The notes below the pieces were generated by a model. That model searched no databases. It saw nothing but the letters and a program-made list of their open reading frames with translations, and had not been told where the DNA came from. Positions 22,398 through 55,720 of a DNA stretch of 64,000 nucleotides are shown one piece after another (the first letter of the stretch is position 1; every line of letters starts with the position of its first letter). The stretch is from Eledone cirrhosa (Eukaryota): the NCBI GenBank assembly GCA_964016885.1, contig OZ024759.1:14880001-14944000 (forward strand), read 5' to 3'. The position numbers and the translations under genes are program-made.

Positions 22398-22846
22398 GAT
22401 ATTAAATAAATGGAAACTATATTTATTTCCTTATATATATATTTCAGGGATATCATATTAACAATATGTTATGCCTTCATCAGACAAAATACAATATAAA
22501 CAGTCTTATAAATAAATAGATATGACATACCTTTCAATCGACCTGCATTTGGGAAGTTGATTTGGCAGATCAACTTCCAAATCAACTTCCCAAATGCAGG
22601 TCGATTGAAAGGTATGTCATATCTATTTATTTATAAGACTGTTTATATTGTATTTTGTCTGATGAAGGCATAACATATTGTTAATATGATATCCCTGAAA
22701 TATATATAATGAAATAAATATGGTTTTATAAATATAGTTTCCATTTATTTAATATCATAAATATACTCCAAATACTTGTTGAGTGCTTTTATATCAGTTA
22801 TAAATATTTACTCGTTGTTAACCCAACAATTTAAATATAACTTTCC
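22398..22846 (+). mobile_element. Fold-back hammerhead element, family A copy 1
   Basis: Inverted arms 22398-22565 and 22577-22756, then a 90-nt tail into (TA)n; homologous to copies at 38003, 52044, 52906 and 55285. Confidence 0.85.
22651..22716 (+). ncRNA. Minimal type-I hammerhead ribozyme motif (A1)
   Basis: TATTTTGT-CTGATGA-stem II AGGCATAACATATT/AATATGATATCCCT-GAAA-TATATA-TA|ATGAAATA; stem I pairs 8/8 allowing G-U. Confidence 0.8.
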
Positions 22847-23380
22847 ATATATGTATATATATATATATAAATGTGTGTATATATATAAATCTGTGTATAT
22901 ATATATATGTATATATAAATATGTGTGTGTATATATATAAATGTGTGTATATATATATGTATATATATATATAAATGTGTGTGTATATATGTATGCATAT
23001 ATATATAAATGTGTGTATATATGTATGCATATATATATATATAAATGTGTGTATATATGTATGCATATATATATATATAAATGTGTGTATATATGTATGC
23101 ATATATATATAAATATATGTATGTATATATGTATGCAAATATATATATATATATATACAAATATATGTATGTATATATGTATGCAAATATATATATATAT
23201 ATATATATAAATATATGTATGTATATATGTATGCATATATTTATATATATATATATATATATAGATCAATAAATATATCTATGTATGTGTATATATATAT
23301 GCATATATATATATATATATATATATATATATATATGTATGCATATATATATATATATATATATATATATATATAAAATA

Positions 23381-23573
23381 AAGGAAATGTGGTAATGAAC
23401 CAGATGGACCATAACGCACCAGAGTACGCAAGACTTAGCGTCGTAGAGTGGGAAATAGGAAAAAGTATGACCCCCGATGGCAGAGATCAGGCCGTTTCGA
23501 CGGCTATCTCTGGACTCCAGAAATAGCTGCCGAAACGGCTTGAGCTCTGCCGTCGAGGTCTTACTTTCCCCTA
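23381..23573 (-). mobile_element. Fold-back element, family B copy 1
   Basis: Imperfect palindrome 23456-23573 centred near 23515, with tail 23381-23455; (TA)n on both sides. Confidence 0.75.
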
Positions 23574-23608
23574 TATATATATATATATATATTTATATAT
23601 ATATATAT

Positions 23609-24131
23609 GATAATAAGGTCGCTGCGGAGTTGCAAATGGGTTACATGTGAAAACAGTTTGTCCTTCATCAGTGATCTTCCAACCATCATAGGCATTTCAT
23701 CGCTTTAAAGACCATATACCTCCGGTTGGTGCGAGCAACGGCTAAAAAAAGTCGTTGGGACACGTAAATAAAGGGGACGCGAGGGTAAACAAACAAAATG
23801 GTGAAGCAACAGAAAGGGAGGAAGAAAGAGACAAGTCCCAGATTTCTATGAATTTAAATTCGGTGAAATCGTGAACGAGAGAATAAAGACCCTCAAACCT
23901 GATTCTCTCGTTCACGATTTCACCGAATTTAAATTCATAGAAATCTGGGACTTGTCTCTTTCTTCCTCACTTTCTGTTGCTTCACCATTTTGTTTGTTTA
24001 CCCTCGCGTCCCCTTTATTTACGTGTCCCAACGACTTTTTTTAGCCGTTGCTCGCACCAACCGGAGGTATATGGTCTTTAAAGCGATGAAATGCCTATGA
24101 TGGTTGGAAGATCACTGATGAAGGACAAACT
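23609..24131 (-). mobile_element. Large fold-back element with 230-bp arms
   Basis: Arms 23655-23884 and 23902-24131, near-perfect; CTGATGA close to the outer end of each arm; (TA)n flanks. Confidence 0.75.
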
Positions 24132-24715
24132 TTTTATATACATATATATATATCAATAAATATATGTATGTATGTGTAAATATGTATCCATATATACATA
24201 TAAACACACATATGCACCACACCAAATATACATATGTAGTAAATTATTTTACTTGTTACAGTCAGTAGACTTCGGCCCAGCTGAGACACCACGTTGGAAA
24301 ACACACACACACACACACACACACATACACATACACACACACACACACACACATATATATATATATATATATATATATATATATATATATATATATATAT
24401 ATATATATACATAGATAGATATATACCACCTCATCAATTCATATGATACCACATCACATATGTTATAGTATTATCTTCATGTCTTTCAAACCGAATTTTG
24501 TTTTTACGATTTTTATCGTTTATATCGTCAAAATCGGAAACACAATATAAACAGGAATAGTAATATGAATTTGTAAGATTAATGATAATTCAATTTTTTC
24601 CCTCTTCGTGTCATTTATTCCATTCGTTGTTCATTTTACTTTAGCATTTATTAAGATTTTATTATTTTTACTTTTGTCATCATCTCCAGACAGTCTGTAC
24701 TGTCCAGTTATACGA

Positions 24716-25395
24716 TATATATATATATATATATATATATATATATATATATATATATATATATATGTGTATATATATATGTATATATATATATATGTGT
24801 GTGTGTGTATATATATATGTATATATATATATGTGTGTATATATATATGTATATATATATATATGTGTGTATATATATATGTATATATATATATATGTGT
24901 GTGTATATATGTATATATATATATGTGTGTGTATATATGTATATATATATATATGTGTGTGTATATATGTATATATATATATATGTGTGTGTATATATGT
25001 ATATATATATATATGTGTGTGTATATATATATGTATATATATATATATGTGTGTGTATATATATATGTATATATATATATGTGTGTGTATATATATATGT
25101 ATATATATATGTATATATATATTTGTGTGTGTGTGTGTATATATGTATGTGTATATACGTGTACGTGTATATATTTGTATGTGTATATACGTGTACGTGT
25201 ATATATTTGTGTGTGTATATATATGCATGTGTATATACGTGTACGTGTGTATATATTTGTGTGTATATATGTGTATATACGTGTACGTGTGTATATATAT
25301 TGTGTGTATGTGTGTGTATATACATATGTGTGTGTGTGTATATGCATATGCGTGTGTATATACATATGTGTGTATATATATATATATATATATAA
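24716..25395. repeat. TA/TG compound microsatellite
   Basis: Seen directly. Confidence 0.95.
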
Positions 25396-25604
25396 ATGAA
25401 GTATTTCCGTCAGAAATGTACAGGAAAAAAGAGTGCTCTATGTAGGCTACAGAGCTTATTATTTATGTAATACACAACATAAGATAGTCATTTCATTTAC
25501 CAGTGGTTTCTTGAAGAAAGACCTGGTAAATGAATTAATTATCTTATGTTGTTTATTACATAACTATATATATATATATATATATATATATATATATATA
25601 TATA

Positions 25605-25972
25605 TAAATGGCTTCTACAGGACTAGAACTGTTTCATTCGGAAGAAATCATCAGGAAAGCTTTTATATTATATATTTATACAGGGCAGCGGATTGGCAGT
25701 ATCGGTAGGGCGTCGGACATGCTTTGCGGCATAGAGTTACGGCCCTTTATGATCTGAGTTCAAATCCCGCCGAGGTTAACTTTACCTTCCTTACGGGGTC
25801 GATAAAATAAAGTACCAGTAATACACTGAGGTAGATTTAATCGCCTTTTCCCTTCCCCAAAATTGTTAGCCTTCTGCCTATATAAGAAGCCATATTATAT
25901 ATGTATACTCTGCTATGGATTGAGTGCCTTACTTACTGTGGTTACCCCCGATTGAGCCCGGGATAAACATAT
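25605..25972 (+). mobile_element. Family I element (hammerhead-like inverted piece plus tail) interrupted by a SINE
   Basis: 25605-25660 matches 51346-51400; 25885-25972 matches the reverse complement of 51256-51357. Confidence 0.6.
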
Positions 25973-53795: not shown

Positions 53796-53879
53796 TACTG
53801 GTATATATATATACTGATATATATATATATATATATATATATATATATATATATATATATATATATACATACAAAGCTA

Positions 53880-54175
53880 CAGTCAGTAGGCACCTCTAAA
53901 CCCAATGCAAACCACACACCCCACCCCATCCTCACTTTCCCGTTCCGTCCACTGCGTCGATGATAACAGTCCACACTGTAAGTTGGTCGTGTAGGAGACA
54001 CGGTAAAAAGAATCTCAGTCCACACTGTAAATGTGGTTAGTGTTAGGTAGGGCATCCAGCTTTAAAAAACCCTGCCAGAGACACGGTCTTGCGACTATTC
54101 CCGCTTCAAATGGAACCAAACCGTCTAACCCATGGTAGCATGGAATGTGGACGTTAAACGACGAGGATGATCATG
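53880..54175 (+). mobile_element. SINE/LINE-tail fragment
   Basis: agggcatccagc...aacccatggtagcatggaa...ggacgttaaacg followed by a (gat)-like tail. Confidence 0.55.
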
Positions 54176-54184
54176 ATATATATA

Positions 54185-54490
54185 TATTATTGAGTAAACT
54201 GACAGGAGGCTGGACAGGTGAAATTCCTTCAAAGATTTTTAATAAATCTTTTAATAAATCTTTTAATAAATCTTTTAATAAATCTTTAATAAATCTTTGA
54301 ACGAATTTCACCAGTCCAGCCTCCTGTCATTTTCCTCAATAATAATTAACTCGTTCTCGCACTACCAACAAGATTCAACATAAACGAAGATGGATGAGTT
54401 GCATTGCGTCGAGTGCTTTTCCTAATATCGCATCACGGTTGATTATACGGAATGACCGGTTCTATCCCGTGGTGAACCAACCAACCTAAA
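54185..54490 (+). mobile_element. Fold-back element, family C
   Basis: Arms 54185-54238 and 54291-54344; loop of about five 12-mers; 145-nt tail into TA. Confidence 0.75.
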
Positions 54491-55102
54491 TATATATATT
54501 GTTGATATATATATTGTTGATCTTATTGACTGATGAATAGCTCTTGTTTATTTTAACATGTCTGTTGAGCACTCTGATTCGATATGTGATAATTTGTATT
54601 CTTACATAATTTACATATCACCGAATTCTTTCGCTAATATAAGGGTTCCCTCCCTTGCTGAATACCATGTGCGTTGTTTGGCTTCGGGGCCCCTCTGTAT
54701 TATGGAACGAAATACTCGTTGATAAAGCATTTCCTCGTTCCTCTCTTATCTATAAGTCTTATATATCTTTTATGTGGGCTGATAGTGATTGGATTAAGGA
54801 ATTGCAGAAACCCAAGAAGCTAGATTTAACATCGTTCTAGCGGGTCCGGGTAAGTTTTTTACATTCATTTAATTTATTAAATTATTGATATTTTATTTGA
54901 GTGACCCGAATCTTCCTGGTCATTCTTTTTCGGCTGCATGGGTGATTTTAGGCATGACCTCTATGTGTTGGTATTTTAACGATAGTTATAGCTCTGATTT
55001 TTCCAAATTATTGAGCCCTCTGCCACATATATCGGATATTGTTTATCGTGATTTCGTGGGCTGATATTCCGATTCTCGATTATTCTACTAAATATATATA
55101 TA

Positions 55103-55250
55103 GACAAACTTAACTAGAAAATAGTGTTTTGGGACGCGAGCGTATTAGAATTCTCAGGAAAATGGGAAAACTCGGCGTATGGATGCTGTTAGAACAGAAA
55201 AATACCGTCTTAGCTTCCATACGCCGAGTTTTCTCATTTCCATGAGAATT
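55103..55250 (-). mobile_element. Fold-back element, family D
   Basis: Arms 55149-55183 and 55216-55250, tail on the left, TA flanks. Confidence 0.65.
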
Positions 55251-55284
55251 GTATATATATGTATATATATATAAATATATATAC

Positions 55285-55720
55285 ACGATATTAACAATGG
55301 AAACTATATTTATAAAACCATATTTATTTCATTATACATATTTCAAGGACAGCAAGTTAAATTATGGTGTGCTTTCATCAGATAAAATATAATATAGACC
55401 TGTTTTATAAATAAATATTGATATACCCTTAAAGAATGCAACCATTTCTGTTGGAAGCTCCGGAACAGTATGGTTGCATTCTTTAAGGGTATCTCAATAT
55501 TTATTTATAAAACTGCTCTATATTATATTTTATCTGATGAAAGCACACCATAATTTAACTTGGTGTCCTTGAAATATGTATAATGAAATAAATATGGTTT
55601 TATAAATATAGTTTCCATTTGTTAATATCGTATTTTTACTCCAATTATTTGTTGAGTGCTTTATATCAGTTATAAAAATATTTGCTTGTTGTATCCCAAC
55701 AATTTAAATTGAACTTTCAC
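55285..55720 (+). mobile_element. Fold-back hammerhead element, family A copy 3
   Basis: Arms 55285-55452 and 55464-55631, tail to 55720. Confidence 0.87.
55526..55590 (+). ncRNA. Minimal type-I hammerhead ribozyme motif (A3)
   Basis: TATTTTAT-CTGATGA-AAGCACACCA...TGGTGTCCTT-GAAA-TATGTA-TA|ATGAAATA. Confidence 0.8.

What the first reader, a model, noticed from the sequence alone, without database searches (positions are those of the whole stretch)
22398..55720. Family A: six dispersed elements carrying an intact minimal hammerhead ribozyme with covarying stem II
Seen at 22651, 33163, 38132 (minus), 52270, 52972 and 55526: an 8-bp stem I, CTGA(T/A)GA, stem II, GAAA, a 6-nt (near-)palindromic stem III (TATATA/TATGTA) and a TA cleavage site. 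Stem II sequence and length differ between copies, yet pairing is kept (ACACCA/TGGTGT, GTACCAA/TTGGTAC, GTAC/GTAC, CCATATT/AATATGG). Every copy has a C.C or C.A mismatch at the fourth stem II position. Known: minimal type-I hammerheads with a palindromic stem III are typical of PLEs and retrozymes and are thought to cleave as dimers. Inference: a non-coding, self-cleaving mobile RNA family under structural selection. I cannot tell without a search whether it has been described.
Basis: partly seen in the sequence, partly recalled or inferred. Interest (0 to 1): 0.9.

Follow-up and report, generated by a model that had tools for sequence, protein, structure and literature searches.

The report
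Penelope retrotransposon end-repeats carrying hammerhead ribozyme
The six ribozyme-shaped motifs are real, but they are the short end-repeats of one very abundant protein-coding Penelope-like jumping gene, a known kind of element; the exact places where the copies start and stop likely record how that element copies itself.

Summary
All six type-I hammerhead (HHR) motifs sit where stated, and stem II covaries. The genome holds 63,863 core-pattern matches (control 12).

The interpretation needs correcting. The family is not a free non-coding RNA or retrozyme. It is the pseudo-LTR of an autonomous Penelope-like element (742-aa RT + GIY-YIG protein with Hydra-clade motifs). Three window arms are 98-99% identical to the repeat lying directly before that ORF, and the other three subtypes have ORF-linked relatives. 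The core is conserved between subfamilies but decays at the flank rate within insertions, so selection acts on source elements. HHRs in Hydra-clade elements, including an octopus family, are published.

I found two footprints in none of my literature searches. First, 5' ends pile up at one Inr-like base ~90 nt upstream of the core (56 of 173 arms end within 10 nt). Second, each fixed 3' end abuts one copy of a duplicated hairpin whose 91-93-nt period equals the tail. Likely mechanism: internal priming in the 5' leader, then run-off. Cleavage and expression are untested. New member of a known kind.

The parts
22398..22848 (.). Fold-back insertion 1 in (TA)n: inverted arm, turn near 22568-22574, forward arm and tail
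   Evidence: 196 bp paired as ssDNA; forward arm 98.7% identical to the pLTR 51 nt before the ORF match in L239
22651..22716 (+). Type-I HHR, predicted cut after 22708
22398..22560 (-).
22757..22848 (+). Tail between 3' end site 1 and site 2, starting with the duplicated hairpin (22765-22788)
33060..33266 (+). Single arm of the most divergent subfamily; putative +1 at 33107; ends at site 1
   Evidence: 1,636 exact matches to its HHR; ORF-linked relatives L412, L413
33163..33217 (+). Type-I HHR with short stem II, predicted cut after 33209
38001..38312 (-). Arm with tail (38001-38092); its 5' hairpin is split by an unrelated insert at about 38245-38290
   Evidence: ORF-linked relatives L377, L410
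38132..38197 (-). Type-I HHR, predicted cut after 38140
38313..38363 (+). Stub of the partner arm, beginning exactly at the putative +1 base, then (TA)n
52043..52467 (.). Fold-back insertion 2: inverted arm (HHR core at 52142, minus), turn near 52201-52215, forward arm and tail
   Evidence: forward arm 98.3% identical to the pLTR 50 nt before the ORF match in L241/L242 and 97.9% to the repeat 1.8 kb after the EN domain in L097
52270..52335 (+). Type-I HHR, predicted cut after 52327
52720..53073 (+). Insertion 3: short inverted piece of the tail end (52720-52764), then a forward arm that runs through the putative +1 (52901) and ends at site 1
   Evidence: ORF-linked relative L411
52972..53032 (+). 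Type-I HHR, predicted cut after 53024
55285..55722 (.). Fold-back insertion 4: inverted arm (HHR core at 55381, minus), turn near 55455-55459, forward arm and tail; young subfamily
   Evidence: (41 full-length matches at 99-100%); 98.7% identical to the pLTR 48 nt before the ORF match in L031
55526..55590 (+). Type-I HHR, predicted cut after 55582
55630..55722 (+). Tail between site 1 and site 2, with hairpin at 55638-55661

Best explanation
The motifs lie in the pseudo-LTR of an autonomous Penelope-like retrotransposon with Hydra-clade protein motifs, and the window's copies are short, likely dead-on-arrival insertions of that repeat into (TA)n. SHOWN: the repeat flanks a single ~742-aa RT + GIY-YIG ORF on both sides (unit ~4.1 kb). 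Copies end 3' at one of two fixed sites ~90 nt apart, both joined to (TA)n. Head-to-head pairs usually join one short-ended and one long-ended arm. 5' ends pile up at one base ~90 nt upstream of the core. Each subfamily keeps the core while stem II covaries. INFERRED (about 0.6 for this part): transcription starts at that Inr-like base in the upstream repeat, giving a ~320-nt structured leader (5' hairpin, HHR, two recognition hairpins, AUG). The protein nicks both strands of a (TA)n target and primes reverse transcription internally beside each of the two hairpins. Priming in the leader of its own mRNA yields cDNAs of at most ~280 nt that run off at the RNA 5' end. Two such cDNAs joined at their ends give the hairpin plus tail. 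Only read-through RNA primed at the downstream repeat gives long copies. The HHR is likely functional in source elements (dimeric or protein-assisted) but is not the step that makes these copies.
For: Link to ORF. All six window subtypes have ORF-linked relatives, three at 98-99%. Protein: open 742-aa frame; DKT, YRDD, CxCx5C, YIG-type and CxxC motifs conserved in 77 aligned homologues; AF2 pLDDT 90 with telomerase RT as best Foldseek hit. Copy numbers: 43,818 exact matches to a pLTR 27-mer against 326 to a 22-mer just before the ATG. Two ends: 39 of 44 arm pairs are short+long; (TA)5 follows 101 of 109 short and 88 of 103 long ends. Hairpin repeat period 91-93 nt in 11 natural copies. 5' ends: 56 of 173 arms end within 0..+9, against 16-17 in the 100 nt upstream; 6 of 30 copies that reach +1 stop there. 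Selection pattern. At most 1 of 176 arms begins near the HHR cut site. Precedent: PMC8557442, PMC4209133, PMC11167929, PMC2377424, PMC3846280.
Against: No RNA data: start site, expression and cleavage are unobserved. +1 is also the first base of a predicted 5' hairpin, so a structure-induced RT stop could explain the pile-up. Many arms run through +1 (19 of 30 in the 33163 subfamily; about 24 of 30). The genome-wide pattern counts 476/2,082/3,540 overstate the drop because upstream sequence varies. Pfam gave no significant RT or GIY-YIG hit on this protein, only a sub-cutoff GIY-YIG hit on 1 of 8 homologues, and the PDB sequence search gave 0 hits. The unit (~4.1 kb) and tail (~90 nt) are longer than described for Hydra (<3 kb) and for PLE tails (30-40 bp). 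No tree with named Hydra elements was built. The core-versus-flank column test is modest (0/11 vs 42/153, p=0.034). The arm-pair test has few events.
Confidence: 0.9

Rival explanations
1. The short copies are a self-propagating non-autonomous (SINE-like) derivative. Short insertions that keep the +1 base are themselves transcribed and remobilised in trans by the PLE protein, and they account for much of the copy number.
For: pLTR-only copies outnumber ATG-proximal copies by about 130-200 to 1. Many copies begin at +1 and so could keep an internal promoter. Non-autonomous PLE derivatives are published (PMC8557442 for Chlamys; bioRxiv 10.64898/2026.07.22.740005).
Against: No short-only lineage was found: every window subtype has an ORF-linked relative. 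Fold points and 5' ends differ between insertions, so hairpins are made anew rather than copied. There is no copy-level selection on the core. The second recognition hairpin lies beyond the long end and is absent from short copies.
Confidence: 0.12
2. Same element, but the 5' pile-up is ordinary premature termination. RT copying a full-length RNA from the downstream repeat tends to stop after copying the conserved hairpin at +1..+50, and +1 is not an RNA end.
For: +1 coincides with the first pair of a predicted hairpin in all subfamilies examined. The region just upstream is a pyrimidine-rich, low-complexity tract. Many arms also end at +10..+40.
Against: An RNA hairpin should block RT at its 3' foot (about +50), not after its 5' foot. 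Ends fall sharply upstream of +1. The motif resembles the Inr-like TCACT noted in a rotifer pLTR (PMC3846280), and Penelope has an internal promoter in its pLTR (PMC2377424).
Confidence: 0.3
3. One reading: an independent non-coding self-cleaving RNA family (non-LTR retrozyme) that is processed into circles and is under selection as such.
For: Type-I HHR with palindromic stem III, covarying stem II and very high copy number.
Against: No tandem arrays: 4 same-strand neighbours under 1.5 kb among 70 core matches and no HHR-bearing TRF array. Copy boundaries are not the cut site. The sequence is the terminal repeat of a coding element. A transcript across a fold-back copy is predicted to pair the HHR with its antisense.
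Confidence: 0.03
4. The HHR is now inactive and the motif is kept for another role, such as a protein-binding or promoter structure in the leader.
For: The monomer HHR fold is 3-8.5 kcal/mol above the MFE in all six copies. HHR mutants did not impair insertion by a Poseidon element in vitro (PMC11167929). PLE min-HHRs cleave poorly in vitro (PMC4209133).
Against: Only N7, the one free core position, has diverged between subfamilies, and it takes all four bases (T67/A14/G11/C6 of 98). The 11 catalytic positions carry no shared variant. This is the constraint pattern expected for catalysis.
Confidence: 0.15

Closest known systems
Hydra-clade EN+ Penelope-like elements, including Hydra-1_Obim from Octopus bimaculoides (Craig et al. 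2021, PMC8557442 section 11 and supplementary files S1, S2)
   Same: Single RT + C-terminal GIY-YIG ORF; RWK-like (RWR), DKT, CxCx5C, CxxC and CxH motifs; (TA)n targets; type-I HHR near the 3' end; inverted 5'-truncated copy.
   Different: Unit ~4.1 kb with a ~1.8-kb 3' region, against <3 kb (2,507 bp for Hydra-1_Obim). The HHR differs in all three stems from the one tabulated for Hydra-1_Obim. Stem II is longer, with a conserved C.C mismatch. Clear pLTRs are present here, while Hydra-1_Obim is listed as 'no pLTR'. Copy number is about 1e5 arms.
[quoted passage not shown]
   Same: Long helix II, palindromic helix III region suited to a dimer, many covarying families per genome, mostly single dispersed copies, some opposite-strand pairs 100-700 bp apart.
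   Different: Helix I is 8 bp plus a predicted extension, against 4-5 bp. The first stem II pair is mostly A-U rather than G-C. Here the variation maps to coexisting autonomous subfamilies, so RNA-to-RNA replication is not needed to explain it.
Poseidon element of Anolis carolinensis (Frangieh et al. 2024, PMC11167929)
   Same: Two fixed ends that define a tail, read there as two internal RT start sites; AT-rich targets; both strands cut and extended; uncleaved RNA used as template.
   Different: There the HHR overlaps the start codon and RT starts inside the ORF. Here the HHR and both ends lie upstream of the ATG, the tail is ~90 nt, and each end abuts one copy of a duplicated hairpin.
Non-LTR retrozymes (Cervera and De la Pena 2020, PMC7229834; Li et al. 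bioRxiv 10.64898/2026.07.22.740005)
   Same: Short AT-rich non-coding units with a type-I HHR, related to PLE pLTRs.
   Different: Retrozymes are head-to-tail tandem repeats giving circular RNA. These copies are single or head-to-head, with PLE insertion ends.

Membership tests
Type-I hammerhead ribozyme | Core CUGANGA, GAAA and NUH flanked by stems I-III, ends in stem I | tested here: met
   (core intact in 101 of 115 arms chosen without regard to the core)
Type-I hammerhead ribozyme | Covariation in stems | tested here: met
   33 sequences; stem II 7 of 9 pairs with two-sided changes; 46 such cells vs 14.5 shuffled. Sequences are related, so this is not a probability. Stem III never varies.
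Type-I hammerhead ribozyme | Match to an Rfam hammerhead model at gathering score | tested here: not met
   0 hits in the window; the permissive E-value mode was not run
Type-I hammerhead ribozyme | Self-cleavage | not testable with these tools
   needs in vitro or RNA-end data
PLE min-HHR (Cervera 2014) | Long helix II and palindromic helix III favouring a dimer | tested here: met
   (double-HHR fold -8.9 to -14.4 kcal/mol per molecule vs -2.6 to -8.6 as monomer)
PLE min-HHR (Cervera 2014) | Short helix I (4-5 bp) and G10.1-C11.1 pair | tested here: not met
   helix I is 8 bp; first stem II pair is A-U in 78 of 98 and G-C in 3
EN+ Penelope-like element | Single ORF with telomerase-like RT and C-terminal GIY-YIG endonuclease | tested here: met
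   Pfam itself gave no significant hit on this protein
EN+ Penelope-like element | pLTR on both sides of the ORF through partial tandems | tested here: met
   (e.g. L081, L088, L091, L094, L095, L096)
EN+ Penelope-like element | Adjacent inverted 5'-truncated copy | tested here: met
   20 of 30 loci (two rows are one insertion)
EN+ Penelope-like element | Optional tail on one end (30-40 bp as described) | tested here: met
   tail present on one arm in 39 of 44 pairs, but ~90 nt long
Hydra clade | RWK motif and DKG changed to DKT | tested here: met
   RWR at 37-39 and DKT at 118-120; DKT in 65 of 77 homologues, WK in most
Hydra clade | CxCx5C linker; CxxC and CxH around the conserved E and N; no CCHH | tested here: met
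   C601, C603, C609 and C699 invariant; CDLC and CRH; no conserved cysteine pair inside the GIY-YIG stretch (judged by eye)
Hydra clade | (TA)n insertion preference and canonical HHR | tested here: met
Hydra clade | Generally short (<3 kb) | tested here: not met
   ~4.1 kb between equivalent ends in L094; the paper says 'generally'
Hydra clade | Groups with named Hydra elements in an RT tree | not tested
   no named reference proteins were available as tool sequences
Non-LTR retrozyme | Head-to-tail tandem repeats of 150-450 bp, each with an HHR | tested here: not met
Non-LTR retrozyme | Circular RNA joined at the cut site | not testable with these tools
   needs RNA reads or RNase R RT-PCR
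Non-autonomous SINE-like family | Own lineage, distinct from the coding element's terminal repeat | tested here: not met
   98-99% identity of three window arms to ORF-linked repeats; ORF-linked relatives for the other three

The most novel reading that the evidence does not exclude
About 1e5 genomic copies give a nucleotide-level footprint of the unsolved PLE cycle. A duplicated RNA hairpin in the 5' leader sets two RT start sites, so tail length equals the repeat period. A dimeric RT-endonuclease primes both strands of a (TA)n target on its own mRNA leader. The resulting strong-stop-like cDNAs run off at the transcription start and are joined head to head. This one mechanism would explain tails, inverted pLTRs, the regeneration of a promoter-bearing upstream pLTR, and the flood of short hairpin insertions in this genome.
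Probability: 0.4. Interest if true: 0.62.

Novelty: new member of a known kind. Interest (0 to 1): 0.36.

Why it matters
As a ribozyme discovery it is ordinary: HHRs in PLE end-repeats, including a cephalopod Hydra-clade family, are published. Its value is for PLE mechanism. How pLTRs, inverted copies and tails arise is still open (PMC2377424, PMC3846280, PMC8557442, PMC11167929). This young, very abundant family with open ORFs gives sharp predictions: a start site at one base, two RT starts set by a duplicated hairpin, and short copies as run-off products. It also gives a natural series of at least six covarying HHR subfamilies with a conserved C.C mismatch for ribozyme biochemistry. In annotation, these short hairpins could be mistaken for SINEs or MITEs (inference). 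Where transcribed, they would form ~180-bp near-perfect dsRNA, relevant to RNA editing and silencing in the host (inference, untested).

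Tried and rejected
Rfam scan at gathering threshold: 0 hits. The repeat finder on the whole window was swamped by (TA)n. No PLE ORF fragment in the window by tblastn, so the partner had to be found elsewhere in the genome. Pfam on the ORF: only a sub-cutoff VasL hit, taken as noise; on 8 homologues one sub-cutoff GIY-YIG hit. 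PDB profile search: 0 hits. Sequencing runs: no RNA holder listed, so this is no evidence either way on expression. Laying three contig runs of unknown kind on a full unit gave contig depth only, which cannot rank parts or show expression; not used as evidence. First 5'-end mapping gave false peaks at -32 and -51 because some subfamilies lacked a matching reference; redone with a 94% identity filter, keeping 87 of 162 arms. Genome-wide 20-mer counts around +1 (476, 2,082, 3,540) suggested a 77% drop; reading 30 loci showed most of it is upstream sequence variation, and only 6 of 30 stop at +1. The invariance of the 5' hairpin's terminal stem is partly circular, because the rows were picked by a pattern holding those bases; it shows almost no two-sided change, so the hairpin stays a prediction. 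Neptune, Nematis and Poseidon assignments were set aside on motifs (DKT not DKG, CxCx5C, no CCHH). Naiad was set aside because the endonuclease is C-terminal. Cleaved-RNA template idea rejected: at most 1 of 176 arms starts near the cut. Earlier scan notes: nothing by sequence or for this genome.

Full report
1. Observation. A scan of both strands finds the core at 22659, 33171, 52278, 52980 and 55534 (+) and 38189 (-), as reported, and also at 22483, 52142 and 55381 (-). Stem I of 52972 has one mismatch. A structure-checked scan gave 5 hits on the plus strand and 0 in each of 30 shuffles (it missed the minus-strand copies). Rfam gave 0 hits at gathering threshold.

2. Anatomy in the window. 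Three elements (22398-22848, 52043-52467, 55285-55722) are fold-back hairpins of 182-196 paired bases with a one-sided ~90-nt tail, flanked by (TA)n. 52720-53073 has a short inverted piece of tail. 38001-38363 is a split pair whose second arm starts at 38313. 33060-33266 is a single arm. The window holds no matching ORF fragment.

3. Genome context. The window lies in a 3.0-Gb animal genome. From its (TA)n richness and the nearest named protein (Argonauta hians, 39% identity) I infer an octopod-like host; this was not established. The 55526 arm has 41 full-length matches at 99-100% among 40 scored of 1,031 candidates. Exact whole-genome counts: 43,818 for a 27-mer downstream of the HHR (control 0) and 63,863 for the core pattern (control 12). 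Forty-eight 10-kb stretches taken at round coordinates held 19 arms in 480 kb, or 0.7-1.9 x 1e5 arms genome-wide (small chromosomes are over-sampled).

4. What it is. One of 30 loci (L029/L031) runs from the tail straight into an RT-GIY-YIG frame. A search with that RT segment returned 150 scored matches at 88-100% identity. In 20 loci fetched around long frames, the arm occurs before the ATG, 1.5-1.8 kb after the stop, and as an inverted 5' copy. Window arms 22651, 52270 and 55526 are 98.3-98.7% identical to repeats ~50 nt before the ORF match. The 38132, 52972 and 33163 subtypes have their own ORF-linked relatives (L377, L410; L411; L412, L413), at roughly 50-86% protein identity to P0001. 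Of 30 loci chosen on the pre-ATG 22-mer, 22 show an intact HHR pattern just upstream. The 742-aa protein has RWR, DKT, YRDD, CxCx5C, a YVG-type GIY-YIG, CxxC and CxH. These positions are conserved in an alignment of P0001 with 76 of 120 listed homologues. They are the diagnostics of the Hydra clade (PMC8557442 section 11, read in full). Pfam and a PDB sequence search did not recognise the protein. An AF2 model (pLDDT 90) has telomerase RT as best Foldseek hit. The unit is ~4.1 kb, longer than described Hydra elements, and I built no tree with named members.

5. The ribozyme. In 98 independent insertions chosen without regard to the core (113 parsed of 115; twin arms dropped), none of 11 catalytic positions has a variant shared by 4 or more copies, against 42 of 153 flank columns (p=0.034). 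N7 is T67/A14/G11/C6. Stem II position 2 is A-U 44 / G-C 40, position 5 A-U 51 / G-C 31, position 6 U-A 60 / C-G 30, and position 4 is C.C in 87. On 33 representatives, 7 of 9 stem II pairs show two-sided changes (related sequences inflate this). Between the two arms of one insertion, which differ only by changes arising at or after insertion, the core differs at 7/286 and the rest at 77/3441 (26 pairs, p=0.83). So the constraint acts on source elements and the copies decay neutrally (few events). The monomer HHR fold lies 3-8.5 kcal/mol above the MFE in all six copies, while a double-HHR fold through the palindrome is more favourable. At most 1 of 176 arms begins near the cut site, so cleaved RNA is not the usual template. 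This agrees with PMC11167929 (parts 1-2 of 4 and passages read). Cleavage itself is untested.

6. End footprints. 3' ends fall at two profile positions, ~151 and ~230-234. In 39 of 44 arm pairs one arm has each end, and (TA)5 follows 101 of 109 short and 88 of 103 long ends. In 11 natural copies running to the ATG, each end lies a few bases 5' of one copy of a duplicated predicted hairpin (ACTC...GAGT and GCTC...GAGC, each followed by GCTT), with period 91-93 nt, equal to the tail. The first hairpin's outer pairs persist in the divergent 33163 subfamily, though it is the MFE fold in only 1 of 4 copies folded. 5' ends cluster at the A of a YCACTAYC motif ~90 nt upstream of the core, which is present in 15 of 16 ORF-linked repeats. 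Ends within 0..+9: 26 of 87, 12 of 30, 11 of 26 (4 unaligned dropped) and 7 of 30. Pooled this is 56, against 16 in the 100 nt upstream (17 counting one end at -1). Twin arms are counted separately and one set was chosen by identity to the 55526 arm. Among 30 copies that reach +1, 6 stop there. Many copies run through. +1 is also the first pair of a predicted hairpin at +1..+50 (selection partly circular). Only 326 exact matches reach the 22-mer before the ATG.

7. Mechanism. Shown: identity with the pLTR, two fixed 3' ends on (TA)n, short+long pairing, the 5' spike, lineage-level core constraint. From literature: Penelope has an internal promoter in its pLTR (PMC2377424, passages); TCACT was called Inr-like in a rotifer pLTR (PMC3846280, passages); a PLE protein cuts and extends both strands and starts RT at two internal sites that define the tail (PMC11167929). 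Inferred: the mRNA starts at +1; the protein binds the two leader hairpins and primes from both nicked strands; cDNAs run off at +1 or stop shortly before and are joined head to head; long copies need read-through RNA. I put 0.9 on the identity and about 0.6 on run-off at a start site. An RT stop at the 5' hairpin is the main rival. PMC3846280 instead proposed self-priming on an antisense template for head-to-head junctions; the short+long asymmetry here fits two-site priming better, but does not exclude it.

8. Comparison and novelty. PMC4209133 (parts 1-2 of 4 read) already reports dispersed single min-HHRs, opposite-strand pairs 100-700 bp apart and covarying families, read as truncated PLEs. 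PMC8557442 (passages, section 11, supplement part 2 of 59) lists HHRs for Hydra-clade elements including Hydra-1_Obim, whose HHR differs from this one. Retrozymes (PMC7229834, passages; bioRxiv 10.64898/2026.07.22.740005, parts 1 and 3 of 5, supplements closed) are tandem arrays, which these copies are not. Two cephalopod repeat papers mention Penelope but not ribozymes (PMC13282606, PMC8967140, passages). Nine searches surfaced no description of this family, of a 5'-end spike at the start site, or of a duplicated hairpin setting tail length. The library lacks most subscription papers, and Repbase and Dfam were not searched. Four earlier scan notes from other genomes reached the same kind of verdict (unchecked, not independent support).

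9. Verdict. Real, and correctly read as a PLE-type hammerhead, but it is the end-repeat of a coding retrotransposon. New member of a known kind; interest 0.36, carried by the mechanistic footprints rather than by the ribozyme.

Noticed in passing
window 52490-52690, 23350-23598, 27843-28005, 53372-53485, 58524-58634; L299-L318: A second abundant young family with the same hairpin-plus-tail layout in (TA)n (2,479 first-look candidates, best copies 97-99%). Nearly all 20 loci read fold back at about the same 5' point. It has a perfect short hairpin but no canonical HHR core; its coding partner was not found.
   Followed up: partly
window 25592-25679 and 51333-51420 (minus strand, cores at 25654 and 51394): Another HHR family with the CTGATGAT...TGAA layout tabulated for Hydra-clade elements; the 25654 copy has a 4-bp stem III. 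Probably the end-repeat of a different PLE family.
   Followed up: no
window 34675-34760 (+): Degenerate HHR-like motif (core at 34681, second half altered), resembling a PLE end remnant.
   Followed up: no
window 23651-24135, 25460-25566, 30290-30409, 54185-54344, 55146-55253, 55775-55970, 63136-63237: Further local palindromes, up to 485 bp at 96% identity. The 55775-55970 family carries an HHR-like layout with a non-canonical first core half. Fold-back insertions of several families are common in this window.
   Followed up: no
L023 about 174 nt upstream of the core; L387/L388 junction: Two independent insertions have 2-3 telomeric TTAGGG/CCCTAA units at the head-to-head junction (1 among 349 arms scanned, the other seen; 0 such runs in 480 kb of background). 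This may reflect telomerase-type addition to a free end during joining.
   Followed up: partly
L031 6016-6766 (minus strand): The inverted piece 5' of a family A pLTR is the EN region of a different Hydra-like PLE family, suggesting template switching between families or nested insertion.
   Followed up: no
window 3163-4400, 9330-9543, 16990-17355, 18855-19066, 25673-26448, 29595-29822, 57011-57138: A ~195-nt GC-richer dispersed repeat with many copies, some in tandem (period 192 at 3811-4394); probably a SINE.
   Followed up: no
L032 1000-1900 (+): Run of C2H2 zinc-finger repeats (HTGEKP linkers read from the DNA by eye) about 2.5 kb downstream of a family A PLE.
   Followed up: no
P0001 residues 478-510 and 583-600: Two asparagine-rich low-confidence segments around the linker; N-rich inserts were described in rotifer Penelope ORFs (PMC3846280).
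   Followed up: no
window 5326-8345, 12008-16687, 19524-22397, 38524-46002: Very long (TA)n-derived arrays of 3-7.5 kb; family A elements sit at the edge of two of them. There is also a 200-N gap at about 51667-51866.
   Followed up: no
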